A stretch of 64,000 nt of DNA. Source: Torpedo marmorata. Lineage: Eukaryota. The notes below the pieces were generated by a model. It worked only from the letters and a program-made list of their open reading frames with translations. It had not been told where the DNA came from and made no database searches. Below are positions 6,110 to 64,000 of the stretch, in pieces. The stretch spans positions 72,912,001-72,976,000 of the forward strand of contig OZ360237.1 in assembly GCA_977017645.1 (NCBI GenBank), in the 5' to 3' direction. Each line of letters starts with the position of its first letter. The first letter of the stretch is position 1. The position numbers and the translations under genes are program-made.

Positions 6110-6210
6110 AAGGTAAAGGTAAAAAGGTAAAGGTTCCATTATTGTCACGTAATACTACATTTAGAATGTAACATACATGAAATTCTTTAATTTTTGTCTA
6201 CCGTAAGGAA
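6110..6210 (-). mobile_element. 3' tail of the non-autonomous GC-rich retroelement family
   Basis: AAAGGT-repeat tail followed by GTTCCATTATTGTCACGTAATA..CATGAAATT..GTAAGG, similar to 58802-58890. Confidence 0.6.
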
Positions 6211-6228
6211 GCCAATGCATCAAATGAG

Positions 6229-10604: not shown

Positions 10605-10857
10605 TAAGAACAGAAAATGCTGGGAAAACTCAGCAGGTTAGACAACATTTATAGAAAGAGTAATAATTGACATTTCCGGTCTGCCTTGGTCAGAACTGTG
10701 AGAGAAAAAATGGCGGTACTGCCGCAGCTGCGGTAACGGCAGCGATGCTGCTGGTGCGGACATGGAAGGAGACGAGACGGGTCCTGCAGTGCAGTTCCGT
10801 AGAGTCCTACCACCTGATTGTTATGCCAATGGCCCGCTAAAGGTTTAAACCTCCTGT

Positions 10858-11193
10858 CAGTGTTGGCGCCAAGGGGGGCATTCGTGGGCATTGCCCCCCC
10901 AAGCGAGGTGCTGTGCCCCCCCATCGCTTGCCGTCAGACCCGCCCCCGCCCGCGTCACTAGTGTGCATCAAGCATCACTAGCGCTTGCTAGTGACTCTCG
11001 ACGCAATAAAAGCAGCGCTTACGGCTGCTACCGCCAGAGGGGACGGAGGAGGTGGAGATTTACGTCCGTTCGGATGGTAGTCCACCAGCACCCCCTCCCC
11101 CCCTCCCGCTGAGCGAGTTTACGACTGTCGGACTGTGCCCCCCCCCGGTTACCCTAATGCCCCCCTCTAACACTCGTTCTGGTGCCGACCCTG
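10858..11193. mobile_element. hAT-superfamily MITE (336 bp)
   Basis: 14-bp imperfect TIR CAGTGTTGGCGCCA / TGGTGCCGACCCTG. Perfect 8-bp TSD CCTCCTGT (10850-10857 / 11194-11201). Confidence 0.9.
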
Positions 11194-11675
11194 CCTCCTG
11201 TAGAACAGGGTGGCAGTGGTTTTATAACGTAACAAAACCCACAGAAGTCCATGCCTGAGGTAACAGCACCCATACTTGGTAAACCAGGCCATGAGGGTTG
11301 TGGGCTCCGGGAAAGCATCGGAGCAGGAGAACACCCCCCTGCTGAGAAGGAGAAGCCTGGAGATGACCCTACGGGGAGGAGACCCCAGCAGAGGACCAGC
11401 GAGGGGCTCAGCGGCTCAAAGACTAACACAAAGATGCGGGCTGCTGGTTTCAGGACCAGGGTTCATGAGGGTGTTGATGGCAGCAGGGCTCATGAAGGGC
11501 CTCAGGCATTAACAACTTCCTAATTGTATCAGGGATTTGGAAACAGGGACTGAGGGGGTGACTTGGATGCCTGGAGCTGCAACAGATAGGAGACTGTGTG
11601 GCTACGGAGGTTATGGGAGCGCAGGAGGTGGTGGGATCCACGAACGTGCAATGTGTCTGAGGGGACTCTCCTTTT

Positions 11676-11960
11676 AAATTTTTTAATTTACACATACAGC
11701 ACGGTAACAGGCCATTTCGTCCCACGAGCCCATACCGCTCAATTACAACCAATTAACCTACAATCCCCGGTACGTATCGAATGTTGGGTGGAAACCGGAG
11801 CCCCCGGATGAAACCCACGCAGACTCGGGGAGAACGTACAAACTCCTTACAGACAGCGCGGGATTCGAACCCCAGTCCCGATCAATGGCGCAGTAAAGGT
11901 ATTGTGCTAACCGCTACCCCAACAATGCCGCCCAACCACGCTAGGCCAAACGTGCTGCCC
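11676..11960 (-). mobile_element. tRNA-derived V-SINE (HE1-like), full length, with a duplicated 5' tip
   Basis: Reverse complement has B box GGTTCGAATCCC, an A-box-like head, V-domain GGGCTCCGGTTTCCACCCAACATTC and a CR1-like 3' tail. Confidence 0.88.
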
Positions 11961-12419
11961 TTCTCTTTGCTTCTCTTTCTCTTCTTGGCAGGGGCGGTGG
12001 GTGGACTAATGGCCCCCCCTCTTTGTGTGCCTTTACTGAACATGTTTTGTGAGTTTATGTACATGACAAAAAGGAACTTTGAAAGAGTGAGATGGAAGAA
12101 GGTTTTCAGTGGGAAGGAAGGTGGAAGAGCAATGTGTTGAACAAAGAGTGTGCCTGTGAGAGGATGAACTGAAATGGCTTCATGGGGGCAGTTCCCAGCC
12201 CATTAACCTTCTCAGTTTATTTGATGGTTAGGTGGTGGGACCTTCTCAGCAGGCTCGACTTGTGCATTTAGGATAAGCAAAAACGAGCCCACAAGATATA
12301 AAAACAGAAAATGGAAAATGGTGGGATTCAGGCAGCGTCTGTGGAAAGGTAAATAATTTCTGCTTTGGATGGAGGGCTCTTCATCAAACATGAGAATAAG
12401 AAAAATAAATTAGTTTGTT

Positions 12420-23051: not shown

Positions 23052-26000
23052 CATAAAACCATAGATCATTACAGCACAGAAACAGGCCCCTTCGGCCCTT
23101 CTAATCTGTGCCAAGAAAATGTTTTGCCTTGTCCCACTGACCTGCACCCAGTCCATAACCCTCCATACCTCTCCCATCCATGTACCTGTCCAAATTCTTC
23201 TTAAATGTTAAAATTGAGCCCACATTCTCCACCTCAGCTGGCAGCTCGTTCCACACCCCCACCACTCTCTGTGTGAAGAAGTTCCCCCTCTCATGTTCCC
23301 CTAAACTTTTCCCCTTTCACTCTTAACCCATGTCCTCTGGTTTGTATCTCACCTACCCTCAATGGAAAAAGCCTATCTACACTTAATCTGTCTATCCCCC
23401 TCATAATTTTAAATACCTCTATCAAATCTCCCCTCATTCTTCTACGCTACAGGGAATAAAGTCCTAACCTGTTTAACCTTTCCCTGTAACTCAGTTCCTG
23501 AAATTCGGGCAACATCCCAGTACATCTTCTCTGCACTCTTTCTATCTTATTGATATCTTTCCTTTAGTTAGGTGACCAAAACTGCACACAATACTCCAAA
23601 TTTGGCCTCACCAATGTCTTATACAACTTTACCATAACATCCCAACTCCTATACTCAATACTTTTATTTATGAAGGCCAATATGGCAAAAGCTCTCTTTA
23701 TAACCCTATCCACCTGTGACGCCACTTTCAGGGAATTATGTATCTGTATTCCCAGGTCCCTCTGTTCTACCGCACTCCTCAGCGCCCTACCATTTACCGT
23801 GTATGTCCTTTCTTGGTTTGTCCTTCCGAAATGCAACACCTCACGCTTGTCTGTATTAAATTCCATCTGTCGTTTTTCAGCCCATTTTCCCAGCCGGTCC
23901 AGATCCGTCTGCAAGCTTTGAAAACCTTCTTCGCTGTCCACACCTCTAATCTTAGTGTCACTGCAAAATTGCTGATCCAATTTACCACATTATCATCCAG
24001 AGCATTGATATAGATGACAAACAACAATGGTCCCAGCACTGATCCTGAGGCACACCACTAGTCACAGGTTTCCATTCTGAGAAGCAGTCATCCACCACTA
24101 CTCTCTGGCTTCTCCCATCCAGCCATAGTCAAATCCAATTCGCTACTTCACCATGAATAACTAGCATCTGAACCTTCCTGACTAACCTCCCATGTGGGAC
24201 CTTGTCAAAGGCCTTACTAAAGTCTATGTAGACAACATCCACACCCTTTCCTTTGTCAACTTTCCTGGTAACCTCCTCGAAAAACTCTATATGATTGGTT
24301 AAATCAGAATCAGAATCAGAATCAGAATTTATTGTCATGAACAAGTCATGAAATTCGGTGTTTTGTGGCAGCATCATAGTGCAATTAACATTCATATTAA
24401 CCATCTAACGACATTACTATAAAAAATTATAAACAATAGTGCACGAAAAGTAAGGCAGTGTCTTTGGTTCATTGATTATTCAGGAATCTGATGGCAGCGG
24501 GGAAGAAGCTGTCCTTGTGCCGTTGAGTGCTCGTCGTTAGGCTCCTGTACCTTTTTCCCGATGGAAGCAGAGTGAAGAGGGCATGGCCTGGGTGGTGGGG
24601 GTCTTTGAGGATAGAGGTTGCTTTTTTAAGACACCACCTCATGTAGATGTCCTCGATGAAGTGAAGTTTGGTGCCTGTGATGTCACAGGCCGAGTTAACA
24701 ACCTTCTGGAGTTTACTCTTGTCCTGGGAGTTGGCGCCTCCATACCAGGCAGTGATGCAACCAGCCAGAATGCTCTCCACGGTACAGCTGTAGAAGTTTA
24801 CGAGAGTCTTTGGTGACATACCGAATTTCCGCAGACACCTCACAAAGTATAGCTGCTGACGAGCCTTTTTTGTGATTGCATCAACGTGGATGCTCCAGGA
24901 CAGATCCTCGGAGATGTTGACACCCAGGAATTTGAAGATCTTGACCCTCTCCCCTACTGAGCCCTCGATGAGGACTGGGTCATGTTCCCCTGACTTCTCC
25001 CTGAAGTCCACAATCATTCTCCTTGGTTTTGCTGACGTTGAGCTCAAGGATGTGGCCATTACACCATTCAACGAGCTGATCTATCTCCCTCCTGTACGCT
25101 TCCTCATTGCCGTTTGTGATTCTGCCGACAACTGTGGTGTCATCGGCAAACTTGTAGATGGCATTGGCTTTGTGCCTGGCCCCACAGTCATGGGTGTATA
25201 ACGAGTAGAGCAGTGGACTAAGCACGCATCCTTGGGGTGCGCCTGTGTTGATAATCAGTGAGGAGGAGACGTTGTTTCCAATTCATACTGACTGGTCTTC
25301 CGATGAGAAAGTCAAGGATCCAGTTGCAGAGGGGGATACAGAGGCCTAGAGTTTGTAGCTTCTTGACCAGCACTGAGGGAATAATGGTATTGAAGGCCGA
25401 GCTGTAGTCGATGAAGAGCAACCATATGTATGAATTGCTGTTTTCGAGGTGATCCAGAGCTGAGTGGAGAGCCAGCGATATTGCATCTGCTGTGGAGTGA
25501 TTGTGGCGATAGGCGAATTGCAGTGTGTCCAGATCTTTGCTTAGGTATGTGTTAATTCTGGCCATGACCAGCCTCTCAAAGCATTTCATCACAGTAGAAG
25601 TTAGTGCTACTGGGCAGTAGTTGTTGAGGCAGCCCACACTACTCTTCTTGGGTACCGGGATGATTGATGCCCTTTTGAAGCAGGTGGGAACCTCTGACTG
25701 CCGCAATGAGAGGTTGAAAATGTCCGTGAACACTCCATCTAGTTGGTTGGCGCAGATTTTCAATACCCTGCCAGGTATGCCGTCAGGGCCTGACGCCTTG
25801 CGAGGGTTCACCCTCTTGAATGATGTTCTGACGTCACCCTCAGAGTCAGATATCACAGGGTCCTCAGCCTTTTAAGGGATTCTAGTAGGCACTGTTTTGT
25901 TCTTCTTCTCAAAGCGGGCATAGAAGATGTTCAGCTCATCGGGTAGTGAAGCATCACAGCCGTCTATAGTGTTCGCCCTCGCTTTGTAGGCTGTAATGGC

Positions 26001-28022
26001 CTGCACTCCCTGCCATAGCTGGCGTGTATCTGTCTCTGTCTCTAGCTTCCTCCGGAATTGCCACTTTGCTTCAGAGATAGCCTTCCGCAGGTCGTGCCTG
26101 GACTTTTTGTAAAGATCCTGGTCCCCGGCCTTAAACGCCCTTGTTCTCGTCCTCAGCAGGTTGCTAATTCTGTGATTCATCCAGGGCTTCTGGTTGGGGA
26201 ACACCCGGTATTTGCGTGTGGGCACACACTCATCCACGCAGGTCTTGATGAAGTCGGTGACACCTGTTGCATATTCATTTAGGTCTATGGCTGAGTGCTT
26301 GAATATGTTCCAGTCCACCGATTCAAAGCAGTCCTGCAGACGCTCCTCCACCTCCCTCGACCATACTTTCGCCGTCCTCACCACTGGTGCTGTGGTCTTC
26401 GGTCTCTGCTTGTACGCCGGGAGTAGAAGTACTGCCAGGTGATCAGACTTGCCGAAGTGCGGTCGTGGTATGGCTTGGTATGCGTTCTTCACGGTGGTGT
26501 AGCAGTGGTCGAGTGTGTTGATTCCCCTGGTCTCGCAAGTGATGTGTTGGTGGTAGTTTGTCAGTGACTTCTTCAGATTGGCCTGATTGAAATCTCCCAC
26601 AATGATTGGGAAGGCATCAGGATGTGCTGTCTCATGGCTGTTTATCACAGTGCTCAGTCCCTCCAGTGTCAGCCTTGCGTTAGCCTGGGGCGGAATGTAC
26701 ACTGCGACCAGGATGATGGCGGTGAACTCCCTCGGCAGATAGAATGGGCGACACTTGATTGCCAGATGTTCCAGGTCGGGGGAGCAGGACTGGGACATGA
26801 CCATCACGTCTGTGCACCACGATGAATTGATGATGACACAAACGCCATCTCCCCTGGTTTTTCCAGACGCCGGTGTTCAGTCAGCGCGATGGAGGGTGTA
26901 GCCCTTGGGCTGTAGCGCCGTGTCTGGAATGTCCTCGTTTAGCCACGTTTCTGTAAAGCACATCACGCAGCACTCCCTGATGACTCTCTGATGTTGAAGT
27001 CTGGCTTGGAGTACATCAAGTTTATTCTCCAAGGATTGTACGTTGGCCAGGAGGATGGTAGGGAGCGGAAGCTTCAGATCCCCGCGTCTCAGCTTGACTT
27101 GTAGCCCCCCTCTGCGTCCACGTGGTCGGGACTTCTTTACCTGGCCCATGGGTCCACTGCCGGTAGGTCCCGCAGTGTTTAAACGGTCCGTGCGCTGTCC
27201 GTTTAAATCCTGCGCGATTTGGAAGTGTGCTGAGTGCCTGCTGTCTGCGACTCCCGCGAAGTTTAAATGGCCCGTTCTCTGGCTGTTTAAAACTCCCGCG
27301 GTGTTGTTGTAGTACTTGCGTGAGTTGTTTAAAGGTCCAGTGGCCCGACGGAGACTGCCGTTTTTGCTGATTCCTAGGTCTGCCAGCGATCTTTGTACAT
27401 CCACGTTGTCGGGTAAGTTTGATTTTATGTTTCTTATTTTTTGTTGATTTTTAGAAGTTCTGAACGGGAATATTTGATTATTCCCGTCAGAGCTGCACGC
27501 AAAGAGTCGCCGCTGTAAGGCGCCATCTTGAACATCTTGAATACGACCTACCACACACAATGATATGTTGACTATCCCTAATCAGTTTTTGGCTATCCAA
27601 ATAATTGTATATCCAATCTCTTAGAACACCTTCCAATAATTTACATACTACTGATGTCAGGCTCACCAGTCTATAATTTCCAGGGTTACTTTTGGAGCCT
27701 TTTTTAAACAACGGAACAACGTGAGCTACCATCCAATCCTCCGGCACCACACACGTGGCTAAGGACTTTAAATATTTCTGCCAGAGCCACTGCAATTTCT
27801 ACACTAGCCTCCTTCAAGGTCCGAGGGAATATCTTGTCAGGCCCTGAGGATTTATCCACCCTTACTTGATTTAAGACAGCAAACACTTCCTCCTCTTTAA
27901 TCTGTATAGGTTCCATGACACTGCTTGTTTTCCTTACTTCACATGACTCAATGCCTGTTTCCTGAGTAAATACTGATGAAAAAATACATTTAAGATCTCC
28001 CCCATCTCTTTTGGCTCCATAC
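23052..28022 (-). mobile_element. CR1 LINE (HER1-like), 5'-truncated, split by a full-length Rex1
   Basis: ORF pieces [56 protein letters not shown]. Segments are 23052-24302 and 27538-28022. Confidence 0.93.
24303..27537 (-). mobile_element. Full-length Rex1/Babar family A LINE (about 3.2 kb; APE endonuclease plus RT, disrupted)
   Basis: 5' end CAAGATGGCGCC. ORF pieces ILLANVQSL..FTETWL, VGDFN..LDHCY..SDH, DYSSAFN, FADD. (TTCTGA)n tail. Several frameshifts and stops. Confidence 0.96.
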
Positions 28023-28406: not shown

Positions 28407-29657
28407 TAAAACACGAAAATCTGCAGACACCGTGGTTGAAGTAAAAATAACAAATGCTGGAGAAACTCAGCAGGTCAAACAGTGTATTTTATGTAGCAAA
28501 GGTAGAAATACATTACCGACGTTTCGGGCTTGAGCCCTTCATCAAAGTATGAGAAAATGCCGGCAGGCATTCAAACAAAAGAGTGAGGGGGGAAGGGGGG
28601 TGGCAAAGGCAGGAGATTATAGGTGGAGAAAGGAGGGAGGGGACAACAGCAAAGAGGGGGAGGAGGGATGGCTGGGTAGGTGGAGAAAAGCAGGAAGGAC
28701 AGGTGAGGGGGGAGGGGAAGGGAACGACAAGCAGGTTTAGTGGAAAGCAGAAAAGTCAATGTTAATGCCATCTGGCTGGAGAGTGCCGAGACGGAAAATG
28801 AGATGTTGTTCCTCCAATTTGCGGGTAGTTTGGGTGGGATAGTACATAAGGCCATGGACAGACATGTGAGTGTGGGAGTGTGACCCGGAATTGAAATGGT
28901 TGGCTACTGGGAGGTCGCTGTTGTTGCGGACGGAGAGGAGGTGCTCAGCAAAGCGGTCTCCCAATCTACGACCGGTCTCTCCGATGTAGAGAAAGCCACA
29001 AAGGGAGCACCGGATGCAGTAAATAAGTTCAAGTGAAGTGTAGTTTAACTTGGAAGGCCTGTTTGGGGCCCTGGACCGTGGTGAGGGGGGAGGTGTGGGC
29101 GCAGGTGTTGCACCTCCTGCGGGCACAGGGGAAGGTGCCGGGGGTGCGATGGGTGGGGAGGGATGAGTGCACGAGTGAATCGTGGAGGGAGCGGTCCCTA
29201 CGGAAGGCCAAGAGGGGAGGAGAAGGAAAAATGTGTCTGGTGGTGGGATCCTGTAGTAAGTGCCGGAAATTCCGGCGGATAATGTGTTGGATGCGGAGGC
29301 TGGTGGGGTGGTAGGTGAGGATGAGGGGGATTCTATGTTTGTTGCGTCTGGGGGCAGAGGGGGCCAGGGCAGATGAGCGGAACATGGAGGAGATGCGGGT
29401 GACGGCTGAGTTGATGGTGGTGGAGGGGAAGCCACCTTTGTGGAAAAAGGCAGACATTTCAGAAGATCTGGAGTGGAACACCTCATCTTGGGAACAGATG
29501 CGGCAGAGGCGGAGAAATTGAGAGAAGGGGATGGAATCCTTGCAGGGGACAGGGTGTGAGGAAGTGTAGTCCAGATAGTTGTGGGAGTTGGAGGGTTTGT
29601 AGTAAATGTCGGTGGAAAGCTTGTCTCCTGAGATGGAGACAGAGAGATCCAGGAAGG
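28407..29657 (-). mobile_element. Penelope-like element, 5'-truncated
   Basis: GIY-YIG-coding ORFs 28737-29486. 12-bp TSD GCAGAGAAGAAG (28395-28406 / 29658-29669). Confidence 0.95.
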
Positions 29658-30237
29658 GCAGAGAAGAAGCTGTCCTTGTGCCGCTGAGTGCTCGTCTTTA
29701 GGCTCCTGTACCTTTTTCCTGATGGTAGCAGAGTGAAGAGAGCATGCCCTAGGTGGTGGGGGTCTTTGAGGATAGAGGCTGCTTTTTTAAGACACCGCCT
29801 CATGTAGATGTCCTCGATGGAGTGAAGTCTGGTGCCTGTGATGTCACAGGCCGAGTTAACAACCCTCTGGAGTTTTTTCTTGTCCTGAGATTTGGCGCCT
29901 CCATACCAGACAGTAATGCAATCAGCCAGAATGCTCTCCACGGTACATCTGTAGAAGTTTACGAGAGTCTTCGGTGACATACCGAATCTTCTTAGACACC
30001 TCACAAAGTATAGCCGCTGGCGGGCCTTCTTCGTGATTGCATCAACATGGAGGATCCAGGACAGATCCTTGGACATGTTGACACCCAGGAATTTGAAGTT
30101 CTTGACCCTCTCCACTACTGAACCCTCGATGAGGACTGGGTCATGTTCCCCTGACTCCCTCCTGAAGTCCACAATCATCTCCTTGGTTTTTCTAACGTTG
30201 AGCTCAAGGTTGTTGATGTGACACCATTCAAAGAATA

Positions 30238-39423: not shown

Positions 39424-39671
39424 TAGTCTTTATTTGTAACCTGATTATTGTCCATTTTGCTTCCAGTGACCTTGTGACTGGAATTAGCATATATTCAAGA
39501 GTTTTAGAAGATACACATTTAAAACACTTTCCTTGTAATACTGGCTGCAATTAAAAAGCACTTAAATTTCTGAAAAACACATTGGAAAGTTGCTTTGAAA
39601 TTTCATTAAGGAACACCTTGGAATGAATTTAATGTCCATTAACTATTAGAAAAGATTAATATAATGCTCTT

Positions 39672-41485
39672 AAAAAACACAAAAGCTGGAGAACTCAGCA
39701 GGTCAAACAGTGTCTTTTATGTAGCAAAGGTAGAAATACATAACCGACGTTTCGGGCTTGAGCCCTTCATCAAAGTATGAGAAAATGCCGGCAGGCGTCC
39801 GAACAAAGGAGTGAGGGGGGAAGGGGGGTGGCAAAGGCAGGAGATGATAGGTGGAGAAAGGAGGGAGGGGACAGCAGCAAAGAGGGGGAGGAGGGATGGC
39901 TGGGTGGGTGGAAAAAAAACAGGAAGGACAGGTGAGGGGGGAGGGGAATGGAACAACAAACAGGTTTAGTGGAAAGCAGAAAAGTCAATGTTAATGCCAT
40001 CTGGCTGGAGAGTGCCGAGACGGAATATGAGATGTTGTTCCTCCAATTTGCGGGTAGTGTGGGTGGGATAGTACATGAGGCCATGGACAGACATGTGAGC
40101 GTGGGAGTGTGACCCAGAATTGAAATGGTTGGCTACTGGGAGGTCGCTGTTGTTGCGGACGGAGAGGAGGTGCTCAGCAAAGCGGTCTCCCAATCTACGA
40201 CCGGTCTCTCCAATGTATAGAAAGCCACAAAGGGAGCACCGGATGCAGTAGATAAGTCCTTTGGATATACAAGTGAAGTGTAGTTTCACTTGGAAGGCCT
40301 GTTTGGGGCCCTGGACCGTGGTGAGGGGGGAGGTGTGGGCGCAGGTGTTGCACCTCCTGCGGGCACAGGGGAAGGTTCCGGGGGTAGGATGGGTGGGGAG
40401 GGACGAGTGCACGAGTGAATCGCGGAGGGAGCGGTCCCTACGGAAGGCCGAGAGGGGAGGAGAAGGAAAAATGTGTCTGGTGGTGGGATCCTGCAGCAAG
40501 TGCCGGAAATTCCAGCGGATAATGTGTTGGACGCGGAGGCTGGTGGGGTGGTAGGTGAGGATGAGGGGGATTCTATGTTTGTTGCGTCTGGGGGCAGAGG
40601 GGGCCAGGGCAGATGAGCGGGAAATGGAGGAGATGCGGGTGAGGGCTGAGTTGATGGTGGTGGAGGGGAAGCCACGTTTGTGGAAAAAGGCAGACATTTC
40701 AGAAGATCTGGAGTGGAACACCTCATCTTGGGAACAGATGCGGCGGAGGCGGAGAAATTGAGAGAAGGGGATGGAGTCCTTGCAGGGGACAGGGTGTGAG
40801 GATGTGTAGTCCAGATAGTTGTGGGAGTTGGAGGGTTTGTAGTAAATGTCGGTGGAAAGCTTGTCTCCCGAGATGGAGACAGAGAGATCCAGGAAGGGGA
40901 GAGTGTTATCGGAGATGGACCAGGTGAGTTTGAGATCGTGGTGAAAGTTGGATGCGAAGTGGATGAAGTTGACAAACTCCCACAACTATCAACGATGAGC
41001 TTGTCAACTTCATCCACTTCGCATCCAACTTTCACCACGATCTCAAACTCACCTGGTCCATCTCCGATAAAATTGGAGGAACAACATCTCATATTCCGTC
41101 TCGGCACTCTCCAGCCAGATGGCATTAACATTGACTTTTCTGCTTTCCACTAAACCTGTTTGTTGTTCCATTCCCCTCCCCCCTCACCTGTCCTTCCTGT
41201 TTTTTTTCCACCCACCCAGCCATCCCTCCTCCCCCTCTTTGCTGCTGTCCCCTCCCTCCTTTCTCCACCTATCATCTCCTGCCTTTGCCACCCCCCTTCC
41301 CCCCTCACTCCTTTGTTCGGACGCCTGCCGGCATTTTCTCATACTTTGATGAAGGGCTCAAGCCCGAAACGTCGGTTATGTATTTCTACCTTTGCTACAT
41401 AAAAGACACTGTTTAACCTGCTGAGTTCTCCAGCTTTTGTGTTTTTTACTACATTATTACGGTGTCTACAGATTTTCGTGTTTAT
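39672..41485. mobile_element. Penelope-like element with inverted (fold-back) structure
   Basis: Minus arm 39672-40975 carries ORF 39966-40985; plus arm is 40993-41485. 16-bp TSD TTAATATAATGCTCTT (39656-39671 / 41486-41501). Confidence 0.95.
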
Positions 41486-42859: not shown

Positions 42860-44155
42860 TTAATGCACAAAATTGAAGAGCATGGGTTTAGGAGTAACAT
42901 TAGTATATGGATTGAAAATTTGTTGGGACAAAACAGAGTAGGAATATATAGGCAATTACAAGTATGATACTGTAGGAATCAATGCTTTGGCTTAAGGTAT
43001 TCACGATATATATCAATGATTTGGGTGAAGGAACTGAATGTAATATTTCTATATTTGGTGATAACATAGAACTGGAAGAGATTGTGAGTTGTGAGGAGGA
43101 GGATGTGAGGTTTCAAATGATTTAGTCATGTTGAGTGAGTTGGCCAGTATGTTGCAGATGCAGTATGATTGTGAAGAAATTTGAAGTTGTCCTCTGTGGG
43201 ATCAAAAATAGAAAGACAAAGTATTATTTAAAAGTTGATTAATCTGATAATGTTGATGTACAATGAGATCTGCCTGACCTTATGCATGTAACTGAAATCT
43301 AACTTACAAGTGCAGAAAGTAATTAAGAAGGGAAATAGTATAATGATAGATTGCTCTTGAGTGCAGGAGGTTTTGAATTTAGAAATAAGGATGTCTTGCT
43401 ACAACTATTCAAGTCCTTGTTGAGACCACACCTATAGTATTGCATACAGTTTTGGTCTCTTTGCTTAAGAAAGAACATGATGCCATAGGAAGAATGCAGC
43501 AAATGTTCACCAAACTGATTCTTAGGATGATCAGATTGTTGTGTGAGGAGAGCTTGGGTCTCTTCAGGCTTGTATTCACTGGAGTTAACAAGAATGAGAG
43601 GGAATGTCATTAGCAGGCACAAAGTTCAGACAGTACTGAATAGGCTGGATACAGAATGGATATATCCAGCCAGGAATGGGGTTGGGAGGGTGAGGTAAGT
43701 GTGATGAAGGGTTTAGAATTAGAATCAGTGAATTAGGATAAAATGTTTAGGACTGACATAAGATCAAGATTACTTTGTTGTCATGTAATAGTACAGAAAT
43801 TGTAATATTACAAAAAAATTGCCTTCTGCCTGCGGTAAGGCAAAGAGTCGTCTTTAGTTTCGAGAGGAACAGTAAGAGAGGAAGAGAAGGAAAAGAGAGT
43901 GCTCTCAGAGTCACTGAGTGTCTGTGGATTAAGGAGGTACTGCTTCACACAAAGAGTGGAATTTTTCACCTCAGAACACTGTGGAGGCCAATTTGCTGAA
44001 TAGATTTAAGGAGAAGATAGATGAATTTCCAGACAACAATAGGTGTGAAGTGGAAAGAGAATAAGGTATTGAAATGGAGGATGAACCAGGATCGGATTGA
44101 AGGTTCAAAGGGCTGAATGGGCTACTCCCACTCTTGTTTTCTGTATTTTATGTTT
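42860..44155 (+). mobile_element. Old CR1 LINE (RT C-terminal half and 3' end)
   Basis: Degenerate YINDL, RPHL.YC.QFWS and GGGCTGAATGGGCTACTCC tail segments. Confidence 0.8.
43762..43930 (-). mobile_element. 3' fragment of the non-autonomous GC-rich family inserted in the CR1
   Basis: TTTGTTGTCATGTAATA..TGCCTGCGGTAAGGCAAAGAGTCG..AAAAGAGAGT..CAGAGTCACTGAGTGTCTGTGGATT matches 58818-58985 and 60078-60252. Confidence 0.75.
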
Positions 44156-46076: not shown

Positions 46077-46776
46077 CCGGTATGCGCCGCTTAAAGTCCG
46101 TTCGGGCAACGTCCGACCGCATATACGTCCGTGGTCCCATAATTATTCAGTGACCACGAGCAAGTCCGCAGCAATTTAGAAAAAGCGATCACTAGCTATA
46201 GGAAATTGTATACTGTATACTCACACTGATCCCACTGCCCCGCTCTCTCCCCACAGCCCTGTGTCGGTCCCCACACTGATCCCATTGCCCCGCTCTCTCC
46301 CCACAGCCCCGTGTCGGTCCCCACACTGATCCCACTGCCCTGCTCTCTCCCCACAGCCCTGTATCGGTCCCCACACTGATCCCATTGCCCCGCTCTCTCC
46401 CCACAGCCCCGTGTCGGTCCCCACACTGATCCCACTGCCCTGCTCTCTCCCCACAGCCCTGTATCGGTCCCCACACTGATCCCACTGCCCCGCTCTCTCC
46501 CCACAGCCCCGTGTCGGTCCCCACACTGATCCCACTGCCCCGCTCTCTCCCCACAGCCCCGTGTCGGTCCCCACACTGATCCCACTGCCCCACTCTCTCC
46601 CCACAGCCCTGTGTCGGTCCCCACACTGATCCCTACTTACAAATAAAAAGTTTACAGGTACACTACAGTATCCCATATAGCTTTGCTAATATATAATATG
46701 GTGTTCGCACAACATCCACATCGCATAACGCCCAATTTCACAGAACTTATCATGGACGTTAAGTGGCGCATACCTG
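46077..46776. mobile_element. Tigger/pogo-like MITE (Tigger3/Golem-like end)
   Basis: TIR CCGGTATGCGCCGCTTAAAGTCC / GGACGTTAAGTGGCGCATACCTG. TA on the left, TG on the right. Subterminal GACCGCATATACG..GTGGTCCCATAA resembles Tigger3 (from memory). Confidence 0.82.
46221..46633. repeat. 50-bp minisatellite, 8 full copies plus a partial
   Basis: Unit CCACACTGATCCCACTGCCCCGCTCTCTCCCCACAGCCCCGTGTCGGTCC at an exact 50-bp period. Confidence 0.97.
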
Positions 46777-48269: not shown

Positions 48270-48522
48270 GGCGGTATAGTTAGCATAGCAGTTAGAACAA
48301 CCCTATTACAGCACCAGCGACCTGGGTTTGAATCCAGTGCTCTCCATAAAGAGTTTATACATTTCCTCATCACCGCGTGGGTTTCCTGCAGGTGCTCCGG
48401 TTTGCTCCCACATTCCAAAGACGTATGGGGTTGATAGGTTGATTGGGCACATGGGTGTAATTGTGTGGCGTGGGCTCATGGGCTGGAAGGGTCGGTTACC
48501 GTGCTGTATTTCTAAATTAAAT
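48270..48522 (+). mobile_element. tRNA-derived V-SINE (HE1-like), full length
   Basis: A box TAGCATAGCAGTT, B box GGTTTGAATCC, V-domain GGTGCTCCGGTTTGCTCCCACATTCCAAAGAC, tail GTGCTGTATTTCTAAATTAAA. Confidence 0.88.
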
Positions 48523-50642: not shown

Positions 50643-51296
50643 GACCTGTTTTAAAGTGTAGACCCTACTCTTAAGATTATGGGCTTCAGGAAGAGGCTAG
50701 CTTTGCATACGATGCAATTTGCAAACACTGTAAACCAGTCCAACTGGATTTTGCAGCTTCTAAGTTATTGCCAGTAGTATCTAAAATACATTTAGCCAAT
50801 ATATTCTCTCCCTTAATTCTTCTGTAGGGTTAACTCAGATTTCCATTTTAAGGTCCTTAAAGAGGATATTGAACTTAATTCTTGACAAAGAGTTCTGACC
50901 AGAAATGTTGAATGCCTATGGATGCTGTCTGACCTCATTGTTTGCTGTTGAATTTAATTGTTGAAGTGGGTGCAATTTGACCCAACTCCAAACAGGAATT
51001 TATTTTTATTTTTTTAAAAACTGCAAATGCTGGAAGACTGAGTGAAAACAGAAAATGCTCGAAACTCCAAACAACTCAGGCAGCATCTGAGGAGAGTGGA
51101 ACAGAGTTAATGTTTCAGGTGAAGTACATTCTGATGAGGTATGTTTCTACCTGCACACATTCAGTCCATATTTTATCATCTCACTCTCCCTTCCGTACAC
51201 ACCTACCCCCAACCTCATTTTTAAAATAAAAGATTACAGCAATTTTTCCTCTTGCACTCACTGAAGTGATCCTGCTGCAAGGTCTTTGACCTGAAA

Positions 51297-51600
51297 TTTA
51301 GATTTAGATTTATTTTTGTCACATGTACCAAGTTAGGAGCATTCCATTCAAGGGCTAGCAAAGATTTGTCAAGCTTTGGTGCCACAGTGAAAGGAGAAAA
51401 AGAAAGAAAAGTAAAGAAAGGATGCAATTCTCTTCAGACAGCGTAGCCTCTCATGCGGCTGCATCCCCAGCACTACCTGTTCCCGTAGGGGGGAGGCTAG
51501 TGGACACCGGGCTCGGGCCCCCATGTCCAGCTGTCCTTTTCGACCCCTGCTCTCGATTCCCTGAAGCAGTCGATGCCTGCAGCCTGTGGGAGGCCTGCTG
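51297..51600 (-). mobile_element. Diverged 3' fragment related to the non-autonomous GC-rich family
   Basis: TTTAGA-repeat tail followed by TTTATTTTTGTCACATG. Purine tract then CTCTTCAGA..CCAGCACT, as in 58940-59000. Confidence 0.5.
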
Positions 51601-56556: not shown

Positions 56557-58801
56557 CTTCCTCTGATTTTCCTTTTACAATTTGTATGTTTAGAATATTG
56601 TCCCAGATAGTTTTCTCAATGCATTCCAGAAATTCATGGATTTATGACTAGTGTGGTTCTGCTTTCATGCTTATGTGAAAATTAACCTCTTTTTTTTACT
56701 TTTATAACCATTGTATTTCTTTTGTATTTATTCTTCCCACACCTCTAGATTTAAATATGCTCCCACTTTATTAGTGCAAGTGAGCAGTTCCTGCGGGAGT
56801 GCTGCATCCTTTGTTGTTCTTTAACTGTAGTCTTCTTTGTTCATTCATCCTTATTGAATCCTTGTTTTAATTGTTATGATTGTCTTTTATCATTGTTCAT
56901 TCTCCTCAACTTTTCCTGATCAAATTATTTTTTTCTAAATATTTGTGTGCCATTGTGGGGAATAATTCTCAAACAAATTGAAAGGAGTTTTAATCATCAC
57001 CATTACCCTCTCCTTTTTGGTCAGTTGCTTTTCCCCAATTGATAGATTGTCCATTGGTCTTATTCTTTTTTCTGTGAGATTTAAACCCATTTAAAATATG
57101 TAAGAAGATCAGTTGATATTTTAAATACATAAATTTCTGCAATACTCATCAAATCAAGCAGCATCTGTGGAGAGGGAAACAGAGTCAATGATTCAGGTCA
57201 ATGAACTTTCAGAACAGTGCTTGTTCCATGTTGCATCTACATTCCTTTCCTTTAATTTCTAGGTATTTACTTAGCTTCTATTTTCCACTCTGATAACTCC
57301 TGTGGATCCCACATTGAAGGAAGTTCTGTCTAATACAGTGTTTCTGAGGAATCAGTAAACTAGAAGACAGGACCCTGATAGTTATCTCTGGGGCGAAAGG
57401 ACCTGCTAGTTGTGACACTCTTCAGAGATTATTTCAGTGCCATTGGATAAAAAGATCCCAGAATCCAACCGACTCTGCTACGCAGATCACAAGTCGCTTT
57501 GCGCACCCCTTTCCAACTTATGCTGAATGGCATTTTGCTGATTCAGTTCTGCCCCTGCTTACCCAGCCTTAATTGAGTTACAACCCCATTTCAGAGCAGG
57601 AAGTTAAGTACTTCGTGGAGGGAGATTCATCGATAGGCCTTTGAACAAAAAAGTTGTGAGAGTATTGCCGACTGATTGGACTCACCTCCTGCAGATACAG
57701 TTCATTCACTGAATGTACTGGAAGTAAATCAAGCTTGAAGTCAATTCGTCTGGTCAGAGCTGGCGACCAAAGACGTTTTTCTTTTCCCCTCCAGCCCTCC
57801 GTTTGCTCAGCAGACGTTTGTTCCCCAGTTACCTAGCATCTTCACGTGTTGACCCAGGTTCTTGGATCAATGGTTTCCTCACACTCCTTCAACCCTCATC
57901 TGGTGTATATTGCTAAATTGTGTCCTTCTTGAATCACCACAGCTTACACCTTCATCTGTAGTCTCTGTGTTAAATATTGTGTGATCATGCATTTCACTGA
58001 TGTCATTGTATAAATATGTCAGGCTGCGAAATGGGTTGTTTGAAAAGTCGTTGACGAAAGGGTTGGTGGAAGTAATGTCTCCCTTGAAACATAAAGTGTC
58101 GGGGTGAGTTTTTCACTTCCTGCTTTGTTTTTGTTACGTGCATACCACATGCAGTGAGTAATGTGCCCTTTAAAATGACGAGATAGGAGCAAATGCTCCC
58201 AAGGTCATTTGTGTGGGTGTTGACTGAATGATATCATCAGATTCTCCCAGACATTGACTCTCATTCTCTGGGTGTAGCATGGGAACAGGAAGGAAGCTGA
58301 TGTCATCAGGAATTATTGTTTAATAGAAGATCAGTTGTCATAGTACTACCTGATAGAGGGGGCTGAGGAACAAAAGGCCTCTCCAGAATCCACTTGAATT
58401 AGATCTCTGCCTGGAAACTGGACAATCATTTGTGGAGAGTGGGTACCCCAAAAAAACCCACAAAATATTGATTGAAAAGGAAGCTACAAGAACATTAATG
58501 TGGTTTCCATGAAGAGGTGCACTGAATGGCGACCAGTGTGTTTTCCAATGGGAATCGTTGTGACAAAGCTTCTGTCATTTTGCTACTTGGTACTCAGCCC
58601 CTAAGGACGCAATCCCGGTGGCAATCAGCCCCCAAAACCACACAGGCTGCCATGGGTGAGAGGGAGGTTGGAGGGGAGAGCATCTTCTCAAGAATGAAAC
58701 ACTTTGCCTTCTGGCTCATGGAGACAATGCCCCTGGTGTTGTCTGTCATGTTTGTAATCCTTGCAGTATTATGGTGGAGCCACATATAAGATTATTTTCT
58801 T

Positions 58802-59565
58802 CAAGGTTCAAGGTTCCTTTTGTTGTAATGCAATAATATATAAAGATGTAATATACATGATATGCTTCAACTTTTGCCTGCTGTAACACAAACAAAGAGT
58901 CGCTATGAGCATTGCCCAGGCCCCTAACAATAAGTGAAAAAAAAGGAAAAGAGAGTCCCTTCAGAGACACTGTGGGTCCGTGGTTTTGCCTCCAGCGCTC
59001 CAGTAGCCTCTGCAGCCACACAGTCTCCTGTTTCACCGTTTGGCAAGTCAAGCTCCAGATCCAAACCACCGATACAATCAGGAAGCTTTCAGTACCTGAG
59101 GCCCTTCGCGAGCCCTTCTTTCCCTGAGCAACCTCTGGAATCCCATTTCCGATACCTGGTTCCCATGAGACAGTTTCCAGCAGCCCGCAGCCTGTTCGGG
59201 TCCTTCGGCTGCATGTTGCCAACAGCCCGCAGCCTGTGTGGGTTCTTCAACCGATGAGCCCCTCGCTGGTCCGTTGCCATGGTCACTGTCGTCTCCCATG
59301 CTTCTCCTTCTCAATGAGGGGTGTGTTCTCCCTGTTTCTGCCCAGAGTCAGCAACCCCTCATGGTACACTGTCCAGCATGGGCACTGACATCCATGGTTG
59401 CACTACAGTATTTAAAAAAACACTGTCAGTTCCCTTAACAAGCCGTTTAAAGCCTGTATGGAGCCATCGGCATCAGGACAAGGCAGTAGGACCCTATGGA
59501 GCAGCACTCTCCCAGGTCCGCACCACCAACAGGGCTGCTATTACAGCAGCTCTGGAAGCATTGCT
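58802..59565 (-). mobile_element. Non-autonomous GC-rich retroelement (copy B, full length, 764 bp)
   Basis: Perfect 11-bp TSD ATTATTTTCTT (58791-58801 / 59566-59576). (CCTTGAA)n tail. Homologous to copies A and C. Confidence 0.85.
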
Positions 59566-59634
59566 ATTATTTTCTTGCTAGTTACATTATGTAAAAAGAC
59601 CTTTCGGTAACCCCACATCCATCTGGTTTCATGG

Positions 59635-59895
59635 CTTCCATCTCTTCTTTACCTACTCCTGTATTTACTTTTCTCGAACTTTTCTCCCCCTTCACCCCCC
59701 CCCACCCTTACAGTGGTCTGTATCTCCACCTCTCACACATTCTATCCTATACCCTATTACCTCTCGCCCCCTCCCCTAGCTTCTTTTCCCTTTTGTATAA
59801 ATAATACCACAACCCCCTTAACTTTAGTCTCAATAAGGTTTCCAGATCCAAAATGTGACTGACCATTTCTACCCATCGATGATGTCTATGCTGAA
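59635..59895 (+). mobile_element. Old PLE 3'UTR remnant
   Basis: Pyrimidine tract followed by a degenerate hammerhead region (GTCTCAATAAGGTTTCCAGATCCAAAATGT). Confidence 0.45.
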
Positions 59896-59905
59896 CGACT
59901 AAATG

Positions 59906-60990
59906 AACTGCTCACACTAACCATCCGAGACGCTACTATTTATTAAACAATATTTAATTAGTTTAATATATGCACATTTGTCCTGCGTATATATTGCTTG
60001 TCTGTATGTGTGTTATGTCTGGTTGTGTGTTTGCATGTTTTGCACCGAGGACCGGGGCTTCAAGATTCAAGATTCAATTTATTGTTGTCGTAATAAAACA
60101 GTGTCATATTACATGAAATTTCTTTTTGCCTGCTGCAAGGCAGACAGATTCGCCACCGGCAGAAATTGCCTAAGTGCCTCTAACATTCCTTACAGTCAGA
60201 GAAAGAGAAGCATAAGAGAGTCCTTCCAGAGTCACCGAGTGTCCGTAGATTCGCCTCCAGCGCTTCTGCAGCCTCCGCAGCCACACAGAGTCCAGTCCAA
60301 ACCATCGGCATCCCGAGCTTCAGATCCGAACCTCCAACACGGTCAGGTCACCCTCGGCACCTCCTCGCATTCCGGTTCCGAAACCTGGTACTCCTCCAGC
60401 CTGTTCGAGCCAGTCTCCAATAGTCCGCAGCCCGGCGCGAGTCTCCCGACAGGAGTCTCCAGCAGCCCACAGCCTCCACGGGTTCCTCGCCTCGAGTTGC
60501 CAGCAGCCCGCCGCATGCACTGGTCCTTCAGCCTCAGAGCCCCTCACTAGTCCGCCGCCATGGTCACCGTCCCGTGGGTCGTCTCCTCCGCTTCTCCTTC
60601 TCAGACGGGGGGGGTGGGGTGATCTTTCCGTCCTCTGGTGCCCTGCTCCAGTCCACTTCCCCGGAGTCTGCAGCCCCTCGTGGCTGCTGCCGATTAATAG
60701 GCAGTGCCATCTTTGGCGCAGACCCGCGGTCGCGGGATCTCAAATAAAACCACCGTCGGCTCCCTCAACGGGCCGTTCAAAGCCCGTGCGGAGCCGACGG
60801 CAGTCGACTGGGCGGTTGGACCCCGTGGGAGCGCTACATCTCCGCTCCCTAGCCCCCCGCGGCTTCGCACCAGCGGCAGCGCTGCCGCTACAGCGGCTCC
60901 GGCAGTGCCGCCATGCACCATGTAGAAGAGCGCTGTTTCATCAGGTCCTACTTGTGCAATCGGATGATAATAAACTTGAACTTGAACTGA
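59906..60990 (+). mobile_element. LINE 3'UTR fragment (same family as 45985-48058) split by copy C
   Basis: GAACTGCTCACACTAACCATCCGAGAC head. Tail AATAAACTTGAACTTGAAC. Confidence 0.85.
60059..60914 (-). mobile_element. Non-autonomous GC-rich retroelement (copy C, CpG-rich, apparently young)
   Basis: Head ATGGCGGCACTGCCGGAGCCGCTGTAGCGGCAGCG. Tail AATAAATTGAATCTTGAATCTTGAA. Many intact CpGs. Confidence 0.85.
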
Positions 60991-61177
60991 GTTCCCCCAG
61001 CAGCACATTGCTTTCTCAAGATCTGCAGTCTTTGTGTTTCTCTATTTTTCAAAAACATTTTGTTAGTTTTAGCAAAGCTGGCAATGTGTATGAGCAGCTT
61101 CTAGTGGGAATTAGAGCGGCCTTGAGGAGTGGCAGCAGGGTGGCCCTTTAAATAATGCTAAATGAAGGGTGCCAGAT

Positions 61178-63960
61178 TTCAGATTTCAGATTTATTGTCA
61201 GAGTACATACATGCAATCACATACAACCCTGAGATTCCCTTTTTCCTGCGGCACGGCAGAATTATCACTAATTGGTAGTGGAAAAAATAAACTGTACACA
61301 GCGTAAACATGTAAAAAAATAAAGAACTGTAAACAACCTGACTGTGCAATACAAAGAGAACAAAATGAAAATCAATAAAGTGCACAAGTAAGAGTCCTTA
61401 AATGAGTCTCTGATTGACTTTGTCATTGAGGAGTCTGATGGTGGAGGGGTAGCAGCTGTTCCTGAACCTGGTGGTGCGAGTCTTGTGGCACCTATACCTC
61501 TCTCCTGATGGCAGCAGCGAGAACAGAGCGTGTGCTGGGTGGTGTGGGTCTTTGGTGATTGCTGCTGCCCTCCGACCGCAGCGTTCCCTGTAGATGTGCT
61601 CAATAGTGGGGAGGGTTTTGCCTGTGATGTCCTGGGCTGTGTCCACTACCTTTTGGAGGGCTTTACGCTCATGGGTATTGGTGTTCCCATACCAGACCGT
61701 GATGCAGCCGGTCAGCATACTTTCCACCACACCTCTGTAGAAATTTGCCAGGGTTTCTGGTGTCATACCAAACCTCTGCAAACTCCTGAGGAAGTAGAGG
61801 CGCTGACGTGCTTTCTTCACGATGCCATTGGTGTGTTGGGTCCAGGAAAGATCCTCCGAGATAGTGACTCCCAAGAACCTAAATTTGCTCACCCTCTCCA
61901 CCTCTGATCCCTCAATGATAACTGGATTGTATACCTCTGGCTTTCCTTTCCTGAAGTCAACAATCAGCTCCTTAGTTTTGGTGACATTGAGTGCAAGGTT
62001 GTTTTTGGTGCACCATTCAGCCAGGTTTTCAATCTCCATCCTGTATTCTGACTCATCCCCATCCTTTATACAACCTACTACCATGGTATCGTCGGCAAAT
62101 TTATAGATGGTGTTATTCTCTTACCGAGCTACACAGTCGTAGGTGTAAAGTGAGTAGAGCAGGGGGCTAAGAACACAGCCCTGTTGTGTTCCGTTACTGA
62201 TGAACATTATGGAGGAGAAGTTCTTACCAATCTTCACTGATTGTGGTGTGGAGGTGAGGAAATCCATGATCCAATTACACAGTGGGGTGTTAACTCCCAG
62301 GTCTTGGAGCTTGCTGATCAGTTTTGAGGGGATGATGGTGTTAAATACCGAACTGTAGTCGATAAAGAGCATCCTGATGTACGCATTTTAGCTGTCCAGG
62401 TGTTCCATGGCTTTGTGTAGGGCCAGTGAGATGGCATCCGCCGTAGACCTGTTTCCGCGATAGGCGAACTGGAGTGGATCCATGTCACCGCTCAGACAGG
62501 AGCTGATATGCTTCATCACCAGCCTTTCAAAACACTTCATCACTGTTGATGTTAGTGCTACTGGTCGATAGTCGTTAAGGCAGGTTATTGCACTCTTCTT
62601 GGGCACCGGTATGATTGACGCCTGTTTGAAACAGGTGGGTACCACGCCCTGCTGGAGTGAGATATTGAAGATATCCATGAATACCTTGGTAAGTTGATCA
62701 ACACAGATCTTTAATACACGGCCATGTACTCCATCGGGGCCAGATGCTATCCTTGGAGTCACTCTCCTGAATGCAGCACGCACTTTATTCTCAGATATGG
62801 ACAAGGTGGGATCGCCAGGGAACGTGACGGTGCGGAGGGATGGTTCTTCGCTGTTACTGTCATCAAATCGGGCATAGAAGGCGTTGAGTTCCTCTGGGAT
62901 AGAAGCTTTGCTGTCAGCTACATTACTGGATTTGGTTTTGTAACAGGTTATGGCATTCAGACCCTGCCACAGCTGTCGGGTGTCCCTTATTGTTTCCATT
63001 TTCATCTGGAATCTCCACTTCGCCCAGGAGATAGCCTTCCAGAGGTCATACCTGCTCCTGCTGTACTGATCTGGATCTCCGGACTTAAATGCCTGCGATC
63101 TGGCTCTCAGCAGGTTCCGGATTTCACTGTTCATCCAGGGCTTCTGGTTGGGGAACACCCTGAATGGTTTGGTGGGGACACACTCAACCACAGCTGTTTT
63201 GATAAATTGTGTAACAGCCTCGGTGTACTCGTTCAGATTCTCAGCAGAGTTCTTGAACACCGCCCAATCCGCTGACTCGAGGAAGTCCTGTAACCGTTCT
63301 TCAGCTCCTGCGACCACGTCCTAGCTGTCCTGACCTCCTGAGCCTCTCTCTTTAGGCTCTGTCTGTACGAAGGCATAAGGAGCACAGCCAGGTGATCAGA
63401 CTTGCCAAAGTGCGGTCTCGGGAAAGAACGGTAGGCCTTCCTTATCTTCGTGTAGCAGTGATCAAGTGTGCTGGGACCTCTGGTACAGCAGGTTACATGC
63501 TGGTGGTAGTTAGGCAGGGTTTTCTTGACACAGGCCTGATTAAAGTTGCCAACTAAGATTTGTAGTGCGTCGGGCTGGGCCGTCTCTTGTTTACTGACCA
63601 CATCACGCAGCTCCGCGAGTGCCTGCTTGTAATCGGCATCGGGAGGGATGTAAACTCCAGTGAGAATCACAGATGAGAACTCATGGGGTAGATAGAAGGG
63701 TCTGCATTTAATCGAGATTTGCTCTAAAGCAGTAGAGCAGGAGGTCGACATAACTCCAATGTCCGTGCACCACCTTGTATTAACGAAAAAGCACACACCG
63801 CCTCCTCTCCCTTTTCCAGAATCCAAGTTCCGATCCAGTCTAAGGATGGTGAAACCGTCTGGTCAGATAGCGGTGTCTGGTGTGTTCTCTGTTAGCCAGG
63901 ACTCGGTGCAGCAAACAACTTAGATTTGTCTTACTTGTCTCTGGTAGAGTAGCCTTGCCC
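61178..63960 (-). mobile_element. Rex1/Babar family B, near full length (APE plus RT, disrupted)
   Basis: ORFs 63233-63826 (GGGV..LDHCY..SDH), 62388-63317, 62121-62372 and 61398-62084. (TCTGAAA)n tail. Confidence 0.96.
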
Positions 63961-64000
63961 TCATTAGATACATTAGGTCCACTGAATTAGATACATTAGA

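What the first reader, a model, noticed from the sequence alone, without database searches (positions are those of the whole stretch)
58791..60914. ORF-less, tRNA-less 0.8-0.9 kb retroelement family with a Rex-like ATGGCG head and Rex-like tail
Seen: three full-length homologous copies (10706-12083 +, 58802-59565 -, 60059-60914 -) and three tail fragments (6110, 43762, 51297). They share a head (ATGGCGG.ACTGCC..AGC.GC.GTA.CGGCAGCG in A and C, decayed in B). They have no conserved ORF and no Pol III A/B boxes. They end in ATGAC/ATTAC-AA(T)AAA plus a short tandem tail whose unit differs between copies. Copy B has a perfect 11-bp TSD. The full-length Rex1 in this window also starts AAGATGGCG and ends ATGACAATAAA plus a tandem tail. 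Known: AANATGGCG is the YY1 site used by LINE internal Pol II promoters, and non-L1 LINE enzymes recognise 3' tails. Inference: a long-lived Pol II-driven non-coding passenger of Rex1/Babar with subfamilies of different ages, which spreads CpG-rich promoter-like DNA. It fits neither a classic SINE nor a simple truncated LINE. I cannot tell whether it is already catalogued.
Basis: partly seen in the sequence, partly recalled or inferred. Interest (0 to 1): 0.72.

Follow-up and report, generated by a model that had tools for sequence, protein, structure and literature searches.

The report
Protein-free hitchhiker of Rex1 retrotransposons
An abundant 850-base jumping repeat in this fish genome encodes no recognisable protein and has no small-RNA promoter; it starts and ends like the genome's Rex1-type retrotransposons and shares its tail with two ordinary SINEs, so it is likely made from its own polymerase II start signal and copied by borrowed Rex1 enzymes.

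Summary
The family is real. In a 1.46-Mb sample it has 61 copies (2.5% of bases; roughly 2.6e5 genome-wide by extrapolation), and 33 of 55 copies with a 3' end start at one fixed ATGGCGGC head. All 30 tail-anchored and all 30 head-anchored loci were this ~850-nt element, none a coding LINE. It has no Pol III boxes, Rfam hit or coding constraint. Subfamilies range from about 4% to 14% divergence. The TGACAATAAA-plus-tandem end is shared with several Rex1-type families but not with CR1 or L1-like ends. Full-length Rex1 also starts at AAG|ATG, its own start codon, which resembles TISU/YY1. A 5S-headed and a tRNA-Thr-headed SINE share the last ~125 nt. Corrections: there is no family-wide TSD, and two of the three 'tail fragments' belong to other elements. 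No Rex copy sampled is homologous beyond the terminal motifs, so the partner and the origin of the body remain open. Pol II use and trans-mobilisation are inferred. The scan noted similar elements in three windows of other genomes, and the 5S SINE in this genome. Repbase and Dfam could not be checked.

The parts
60059..60914 (-). Copy C, full-length member of the young subfamily (~850 nt, 60% GC, CpG o/e 0.86)
   Evidence: 39 other scored copies at 91-93% identity; composition
60907..60914 (-). Fixed head ATGGCGGC (TISU/YY1-like core; opens an 8-codon micro-ORF)
   Evidence: stop after 8 codons in 74 of 92 copies
60706..60713 (-). Second, internal AAGATGGC motif; not used as an alternative 5' end
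   Evidence: 0 of 40 copies start there
60059..60195 (-). Tail module: three predicted hairpins, TGACAATAAA, (TTGAATC)n; homologous to the tail of a 5S SINE and a tRNA-Thr SINE
58801..59567 (-). Copy B, full-length member of an old subfamily (CpG-decayed), tail GGAAC(CTTGAAC)n
59566..59576 (-). 11-mer AAGAAAATAAT, repeated at 58791-58801; a lone case, partly element leader and tail
10706..12084 (+). Copy A, old full-length member split by two later insertions
   Evidence: aligns to the B-type majority sequence in three blocks
10858..11193 (.). MITE-like insert in copy A with imperfect 14-nt inverted ends and an 8-bp duplication CCTCCTGT
11671..11964 (.). Second insert in copy A, another dispersed repeat (also at 48270-48521)
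43760..43930 (-). 5'-truncated family member
6123..6214 (-). Tail of the 5S/tRNA-Thr SINE pair, not of this family
51296..51332 (-). Extreme 3' end resembling a different, low-copy Rex-type family, not this family
24302..27529 (-). Full-length Rex1-type LINE (RexA): AAG|ATG start, endonuclease, RT, PF09004, TGACAATAAA(TTCTGA)n; candidate mobiliser family
61173..64000 (-). 5'-truncated second Rex1-type family (RexB); its 3' end is the closest LINE match to the family tail
   Evidence: E=4e-5; up to 16.3 bits; similar three-hairpin fold
59888..60991 (+). 3' end of a third Rex-type family (RexC) into which copy C inserted: no target gap, 12 extra nt at the 5' junction

Best explanation
This is an abundant, non-coding retroelement of about 850 bases with a fixed start and a Rex1-type end, likely transcribed by polymerase II from a TISU/YY1-like signal in its first bases and likely copied in trans by Rex1-type enzymes that would recognise its predicted 3' hairpin and AATAAA-tandem tail. 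Shown: the unit, its fixed 5' end, random 5' truncation, blunt TSD-free insertion with extra 5' bases, a ladder of subfamilies, ends shared with Rex1-type LINEs, and a ~125-nt tail shared with a 5S SINE and a tRNA SINE. Inferred: the polymerase, YY1 binding, the hairpins, and that Rex1 supplies the enzyme. The partner family is not identified; RexB is the closest of those sampled. The GC-rich body has no known source.
For: Unit: 30 of 30 tail-anchored loci are the family and none has RT continuous with the tail; 19 reach the head and 11 are truncated at scattered points. 30 of 30 head-anchored loci reach the tail within 782-858 nt. 33 of 55 copies in the block sample start at the head. Retrotransposition marks: variable tandem tail and 5' truncation; of 22 rebuilt empty sites, 14 show -1 to +4 nt, 6 lose 6-21 nt and 2 duplicate 5 or 11 nt. 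Rex link: TGACAATAAA-type ends with a tandem unit close five Rex-type clusters (53, 24, 17, 5 and 4 copies), while CR1 ends in (TTATATGG)n and the L1-like element in an A-run. The C profile hits the RexB end at E=4e-5. RexA and the young subfamily are of similar age (about 4% from majority). 17 of 20 full-length RexA copies begin AAG|ATG and 15 of 20 are open from that ATG into the endonuclease. Promoter: no A/B boxes, CpG o/e 0.93 in the young majority sequence. TISU positions 5-12 are needed for transcription and positions 1-4 are not (PMC2518114, passages); in the family ATGGCGGC is constant and the bases before it vary by subfamily.
Against: No sampled Rex 3'UTR is clearly homologous: best 16.3 bits, family medians at most 5.5 bits against shuffles up to 5.6. 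No Rex 5' region matches beyond the head motif. The head motif also occurs in other repeats (22 of 34 sites). The three hairpins are 91% paired, but covariation does not exceed shuffles (159 of 500), and the RexA end folds no better than shuffles (z +0.73). There is no start-site, polymerase or mobilisation data. The Rex1 label rests on domain layout (one ORF, endonuclease, RT, PF09004), not on a phylogeny.
Confidence: 0.75

Rival explanations
1. Bipartite internal-deletion derivative of a rare or extinct Rex1 family: the body is that LINE's 5' region and the tail its 3' end. Same mechanism, but a specific origin.
For: The head equals the 5' end of two Rex families (RexA; one copy of a second family starting CAAGATGGTGGCGC). 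Rex ORFs start at the head ATG, and the family keeps an 8-codon micro-ORF there. The tail homology with the SINEs is longer than any Rex match, which suggests an unsampled donor.
Against: No homology to the Rex 5' regions found (best E 0.29) or to any of the 110 clustered Rex 3' ends. The body shows no coding decay. Only about 2 Mb of 6.2 Gb was examined, and few Rex 5' ends.
Confidence: 0.35
2. Mobilised by another LINE clade (L2, CR1, L1/Tx1), with the Rex-like end a convergent polyadenylation-type motif.
For: Sequence similarity to Rex tails is weak. CR1 and L1-like LINEs are abundant in the sample. L2 ends were not examined.
Against: CR1 and L1-like ends differ. The lack of TSDs and of poly(A) argues against L1 (L1 behaviour recalled).
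Confidence: 0.1
3. Not self-promoting: copies come from a few master loci under a host promoter, or the 5' end is cut by a ribozyme.
For: The ladder-like tree fits few masters. The bases before ATG differ by subfamily. R2 SIDEs use a ribozyme (PMC3414825, abstract).
Against: The 5' end stays at the same motif across subfamilies about 14% and 4% diverged. No Rfam ribozyme hit at E<=1. The head folds no better than shuffles (z 0.05).
Confidence: 0.1
4. Solo LTR, classic SINE or 3'UTR of a longer coding LINE.
For: The length and promoter-like composition fit an LTR.
Against: No TG..CA ends, variable tandem tail, 5' truncations, no TSD, no internal region in 60 anchored loci, no Pol III head.
Confidence: 0.02

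Closest known systems
Sadhu retroposons of Arabidopsis (PMC2848041; abstract and Background read)
   Same: Non-coding, non-LTR, no small-RNA head or A/B boxes, conserved 5' motif, presumed internal promoter, LINE-mobilised.
   Different: Sadhu has poly(A), 7-16 bp TSDs and 39 copies. This family has a hairpin-AATAAA-tandem tail, no TSD and on the order of 1e5 copies.
ORF-less bipartite non-autonomous LINEs: RIME, NARTc, Bov-A, RTESINE1/2, Vingi derivatives (PMC5786205; parts 1-4 of 5 read)
   Same: Starts and ends like a LINE, no ORF, presumed Pol II.
   Different: That paper lists only the RTE, Ingi, Vingi and R2 clades as sources. Here the ends are Rex1-type, and no parent LINE matching the body was found.
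R2 and R2/R1 SIDEs of Drosophila (PMC3414825; abstract)
   Same: Short non-autonomous elements whose 5' and 3' modules can come from different sources.
   Different: SIDEs are ribozyme-processed, rDNA-specific and rare.
SINEs sharing a tail module, e.g. CmiSINEs/SacSINE1-CM with L2-2_CM (PMC5499810, passages); SINE2-5_NV with Rex1-24_NV (PMC3747384, table passage)
   Same: Several elements share one tail longer than the LINE match; a Rex1-dependent SINE is known from a sea anemone.
   Different: Those are all Pol III SINEs. Here the same tail sits behind a 5S head, a tRNA head and a 720-nt head-and-body with no Pol III signal.

Membership tests
Classic SINE (7SL, tRNA, 5S head) | Small-RNA-derived head with Pol III boxes | tested here: not met
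   No Rfam hit on the copies at E<=1; no A/B/C boxes. The same library detects the 5S and tRNA heads of the sister SINEs.
Classic SINE (7SL, tRNA, 5S head) | LINE-type 3' tail | tested here: met
   Tail shared with two SINEs (77-80% identity to the B majority) and terminal motif shared with Rex-type LINEs
Bipartite ORF-less non-autonomous LINE | 5' part homologous to the 5' end of the parent LINE | tested here: inconclusive
   Only the 9-13 nt head matches; profile E>=0.29; few Rex 5' ends sampled
Bipartite ORF-less non-autonomous LINE | 3' part homologous to the parent's 3' end | tested here: inconclusive
   RexB E=4e-5 and 16.3 bits at best; motif-level only
Bipartite ORF-less non-autonomous LINE | No coding capacity | tested here: met
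   Indels in multiples of 3: 16 of 48; shared substitutions 19/18/21 by codon position; no Pfam hit on four open frames over B and C
Sadhu-like Pol III-free retroposon | Poly(A) tail and 7-16 bp TSD | tested here: not met
   Tandem tail; no TSD
Sadhu-like Pol III-free retroposon | Transcription starting at the element's 5' end | not testable with these tools
   Only assembled contigs were available
Truncated LINE 3'UTR | Scattered 5' ends and RT upstream in longer copies | tested here: not met
Solo LTR | TG..CA ends, 4-6 bp TSD, paired copies around an internal region | tested here: not met
Rex1/Babar (for the candidate helper) | Single ORF without ORF1, endonuclease plus RT, 3'UTR followed by an oligonucleotide repeat | tested here: met
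   features as in PMC13343379 and PMC6274825 (passages)
Rex1/Babar (for the candidate helper) | RT phylogeny within the Rex1 clade | not tested
   No reference set on hand; the link of PF09004 to Rex1 is recalled
Already catalogued repeat | Match in Repbase or Dfam | not testable with these tools
   Libraries not held

The most novel reading that the evidence does not exclude
Rex1 supports an undescribed class of Pol II passengers in cartilaginous fish. One portable 125-nt tail has been fitted with three different promoters (5S, tRNA-Thr and a TISU/YY1 Pol II head), and the Pol II version covers about 2.5% of the genome. Rex1 itself would use one TISU-like motif at its first bases as both promoter and start codon, and the passenger would keep that signal with an 8-codon micro-ORF.
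Probability: 0.45. Interest if true: 0.72.

Novelty: new variant of a known kind. Interest (0 to 1): 0.56.

Why it matters
It would extend ORF-less, Pol III-free non-autonomous retroelements to the Rex1 clade, which a 2018 survey did not list. It would also make one of them a major genome component that scatters CpG-rich, promoter-like DNA. Three heads on one tail give a natural experiment on module exchange and on what a Rex1 enzyme recognises. The AAG|ATG start suggests how a LINE with almost no 5'UTR can be both transcribed and translated, which is directly testable.

Tried and rejected
TSD as a family feature: the longest flank match equals mismatched-pair controls, and 2 of 22 empty sites show a duplication of 5 nt or more. 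Internal AAGATGGCGGC as a second start: suggested by best hits beginning at query 226-231, rejected by 0 of 40 pattern-anchored copies. A LINE partner carrying the full tail: the one RT-plus-tail case was a SINE inserted in a Rex 3'UTR. Compensatory covariation in the tail: not above shuffles. HDV-like ribozyme at head or tail: no Rfam hit; the layout did not fit by eye. Antisense protein: no codon bias and no Pfam hit; the Atlas gave no answer. Origin from other AAGATGGCGGC-bearing repeats: only the motif matches, at most 4.6 bits. ARAGORN at a relaxed threshold gave 5 scattered calls per sequence, treated as noise. Expression: no RNA holder listed; one run guessed to be RNA has contigs over the body but cannot show starts. 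Literature: ten full-text searches listed no description of this family; most hits were seen as listings only, subscription papers are not covered, and no supplements were read.
Full report
Setting. The window lies in a 6.2-Gb genome rich in Rex1-type, CR1, L1-like and Penelope elements. That it is a cartilaginous fish, probably a ray, is inference: rays have among the highest Rex1 coverage (PMC13343379, passages), and earlier scan notes on this genome say ray.

The observation. Copies A, B and C align from head to tail. A carries two later inserts, one a MITE-like piece with an 8-bp duplication. Of the three 'tail fragments', only 43760-43930 is the family. 6123-6214 is a SINE tail, and 51296-51332 resembles the end of another Rex-type family. 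The 11-mer around B is real but is 1 of 13 among full-length B-type copies, and its upstream half overlaps an A-rich leader that other B copies also have.

A real unit with fixed ends. An exact tail 29-mer occurs 15,890 times and an exact head 31-mer 3,937 times, with 0 for the reversed controls. Of the first 30 tail-anchored loci, all were the family, 19 reached the head, 11 were truncated at scattered points, and none had RT continuous with the tail. All 30 head-anchored loci reached the tail within 782-858 nt. In seven blocks totalling 1.464 Mb (one centred on the window, the rest picked arbitrarily) a profile found 74 elements. I removed 13 as SINE tails, leaving 61 (36.9 kb, 2.5%; 3-16 per block); 33 of the 55 with a 3' end start at the head. 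The reversed control on 464 kb gave 0 hits. Extrapolation gives about 2.6e5 copies, a rough figure. Young copies are 96.0% identical to their majority sequence (n=30), old ones 85.6% (n=18, best hits), and a tree of 116 full-length copies forms a ladder with intermediates. Public runs of 12 coded organisms hold words of copy C, five at a share above 0.2. In two of four runs laid, hundreds of contigs leave the element exactly at 60914 into unrelated flanks.

Non-coding, no Pol III head. No Rfam family hits the copies at E<=1 and there are no A, B or 5S boxes. The young majority sequence has an open antisense frame of 284 codons (5 of 1000 shuffles). However, indels (16 of 48 in multiples of three) and shared substitutions (19/18/21 by codon position) show no coding constraint, and the frame is broken in the old subfamily.

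Insertion marks. Flank matches equal controls. For 22 of 66 copies the empty site could be rebuilt from other repeats: 14 are near-blunt, 6 lose 6-21 nt, 2 duplicate 5 or 11 nt, and a median of 7 unassigned bases, leader included, precede the ATG. Copy C sits in the 3' end of a Rex-type element with no gap and 12 extra bases. This resembles what I recall of L2/CR1-group insertion rather than L1 or RTE; I found no paper to cite for it.

The tail. TGACAATAAA-type ends followed by a tandem unit close five clusters of Rex-type 3'UTRs, whereas CR1 ends in (TTATATGG)n and the L1-like element in an A-run. Sequence similarity to Rex beyond the motif is weak: RexB is best, at E=4e-5 and 16.3 bits. The last ~125 nt are clearly shared with two short elements. 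An exact 37-mer of their tail occurs 16,863 times. Of 30 loci, 27 carry 5S-derived sequence upstream by inspection, 1 a tRNA-Thr head and 2 are truncated; Rfam confirmed 5S in 12 and tRNA in 1 of 20 tested. Single sequences fold into three hairpins (z -4.66 for the SINE, -3.20 for C, -0.58 to -2.32 for older subfamilies); RexB folds alike (z -1.34), RexA does not beat shuffles. Over 35 copies the helices are 91% paired versus 31-60% when slid, but covariation does not exceed shuffles, so the structure is predicted, not shown.

The head. 17 of 20 best-hit RexA copies begin AAG|ATG (three may be duplicates of one locus), and 15 of 20 are open from that ATG into the endonuclease, so this LINE has almost no 5'UTR. 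TISU is a YY1-bound element just after the start site that also directs translation from very short leaders; its AUG context is AAGAUGG, and positions 5-12 suffice for transcription (PMC2518114, abstract and passages; the 12-letter consensus is recalled). In the family ATGGCGGC is constant while the preceding bases vary: AAG in 10 of 13 of one subfamily, 3 of 17 of another, A-runs in old copies. A stop follows 8 codons later in 74 of 92 copies, TAG in 64 and TAA in 10. The motif is not Rex-specific: 22 of 34 such sites lie outside the family. No Rex 5' region or other motif-bearing repeat matched the body. YY1 binds at +13 to +21 of human L1 (PMC4908685, passages).

Mechanism. Most likely: Pol II starts a few bases before ATGGCGGC; the RNA's 3' hairpin and AATAAA-tandem end recruit a Rex1-type protein in trans; target-primed reverse transcription inserts a blunt, often full-length copy; successive masters changed the tandem unit while the ends stayed. 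The unit, ends, insertion marks and tail sharing are shown. Polymerase, YY1, structure and helper are inferred.

Comparison and novelty. It works like Sadhu and like ORF-less bipartite LINEs but fails or leaves open their defining tests. Kojima 2018 lists only RTE, Ingi, Vingi and R2 as sources of such elements. Ten paper searches found no description; Repbase, Dfam, subscription papers and supplements were not seen. Earlier scan notes describe similar elements in three windows of other genomes and the 5S SINE in this one. These are unchecked leads and not support; sequence look-ups with B and C found no earlier match. Verdict: new variant of a known kind, interest 0.56.

Noticed in passing
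L281-L310; window 6123-6214: A 5S-headed SINE (~235 nt) and a tRNA-Thr(TGT)-headed SINE share one tail with this family; 16,863 exact copies of a tail 37-mer; about 2.7% from majority, so young.
   Followed up: yes
window 27529-27120 (-); L161-L180: The Rex1-type ORF starts at the fourth base of the element (AAG|ATG), open into the endonuclease in 15 of 20 copies; almost no 5'UTR.
   Followed up: partly
window 27530-27540 (-): This RexA copy has a short duplication of its head (TCAAGATGT before TCAAGATGG) and appears to sit blunt inside a CR1 copy.
   Followed up: no
window 60249-61148 (+): Long open antisense frame over copy C; 284 codons in the young majority sequence (5 of 1000 shuffles), no codon bias, no Pfam hit.
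   Followed up: partly
copy C about 60350-60530; 116 full-length copies: A GGGCTGCTGG-type unit occurs 0-3 times per copy and sits in a ~40-nt duplication in old copies; it could be the seed of the GC-rich minisatellites that other scan notes report in related elements.
   Followed up: partly
sample blocks, e.g. L218 and L229: Other repeat families carry clustered AAGATGGCGGC plus GGAAGT motifs, possibly promoters of L1-like elements; some have L1-like coding sequence 2-5 kb downstream.
   Followed up: partly
window 10858-11193: MITE-like insert with an 8-bp duplication (hAT-like by recall) inside copy A.
   Followed up: partly
window 27506-27524 (-) versus the family tail: The RexA 5' end has GCCTTACAGC then GGCGACTCTTTG; the old family tail has the same two words in swapped order. 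BLAST E 0.6-7, so possibly chance.
   Followed up: partly
window 9307-10607, 28436-29663, 39670-40979: Young Penelope-type copies (RT plus GIY-YIG), 94-95% alike.
   Followed up: no
window 46222-46633: 50-bp GC-rich minisatellite, 8.2 copies, 94% matches.
   Followed up: no
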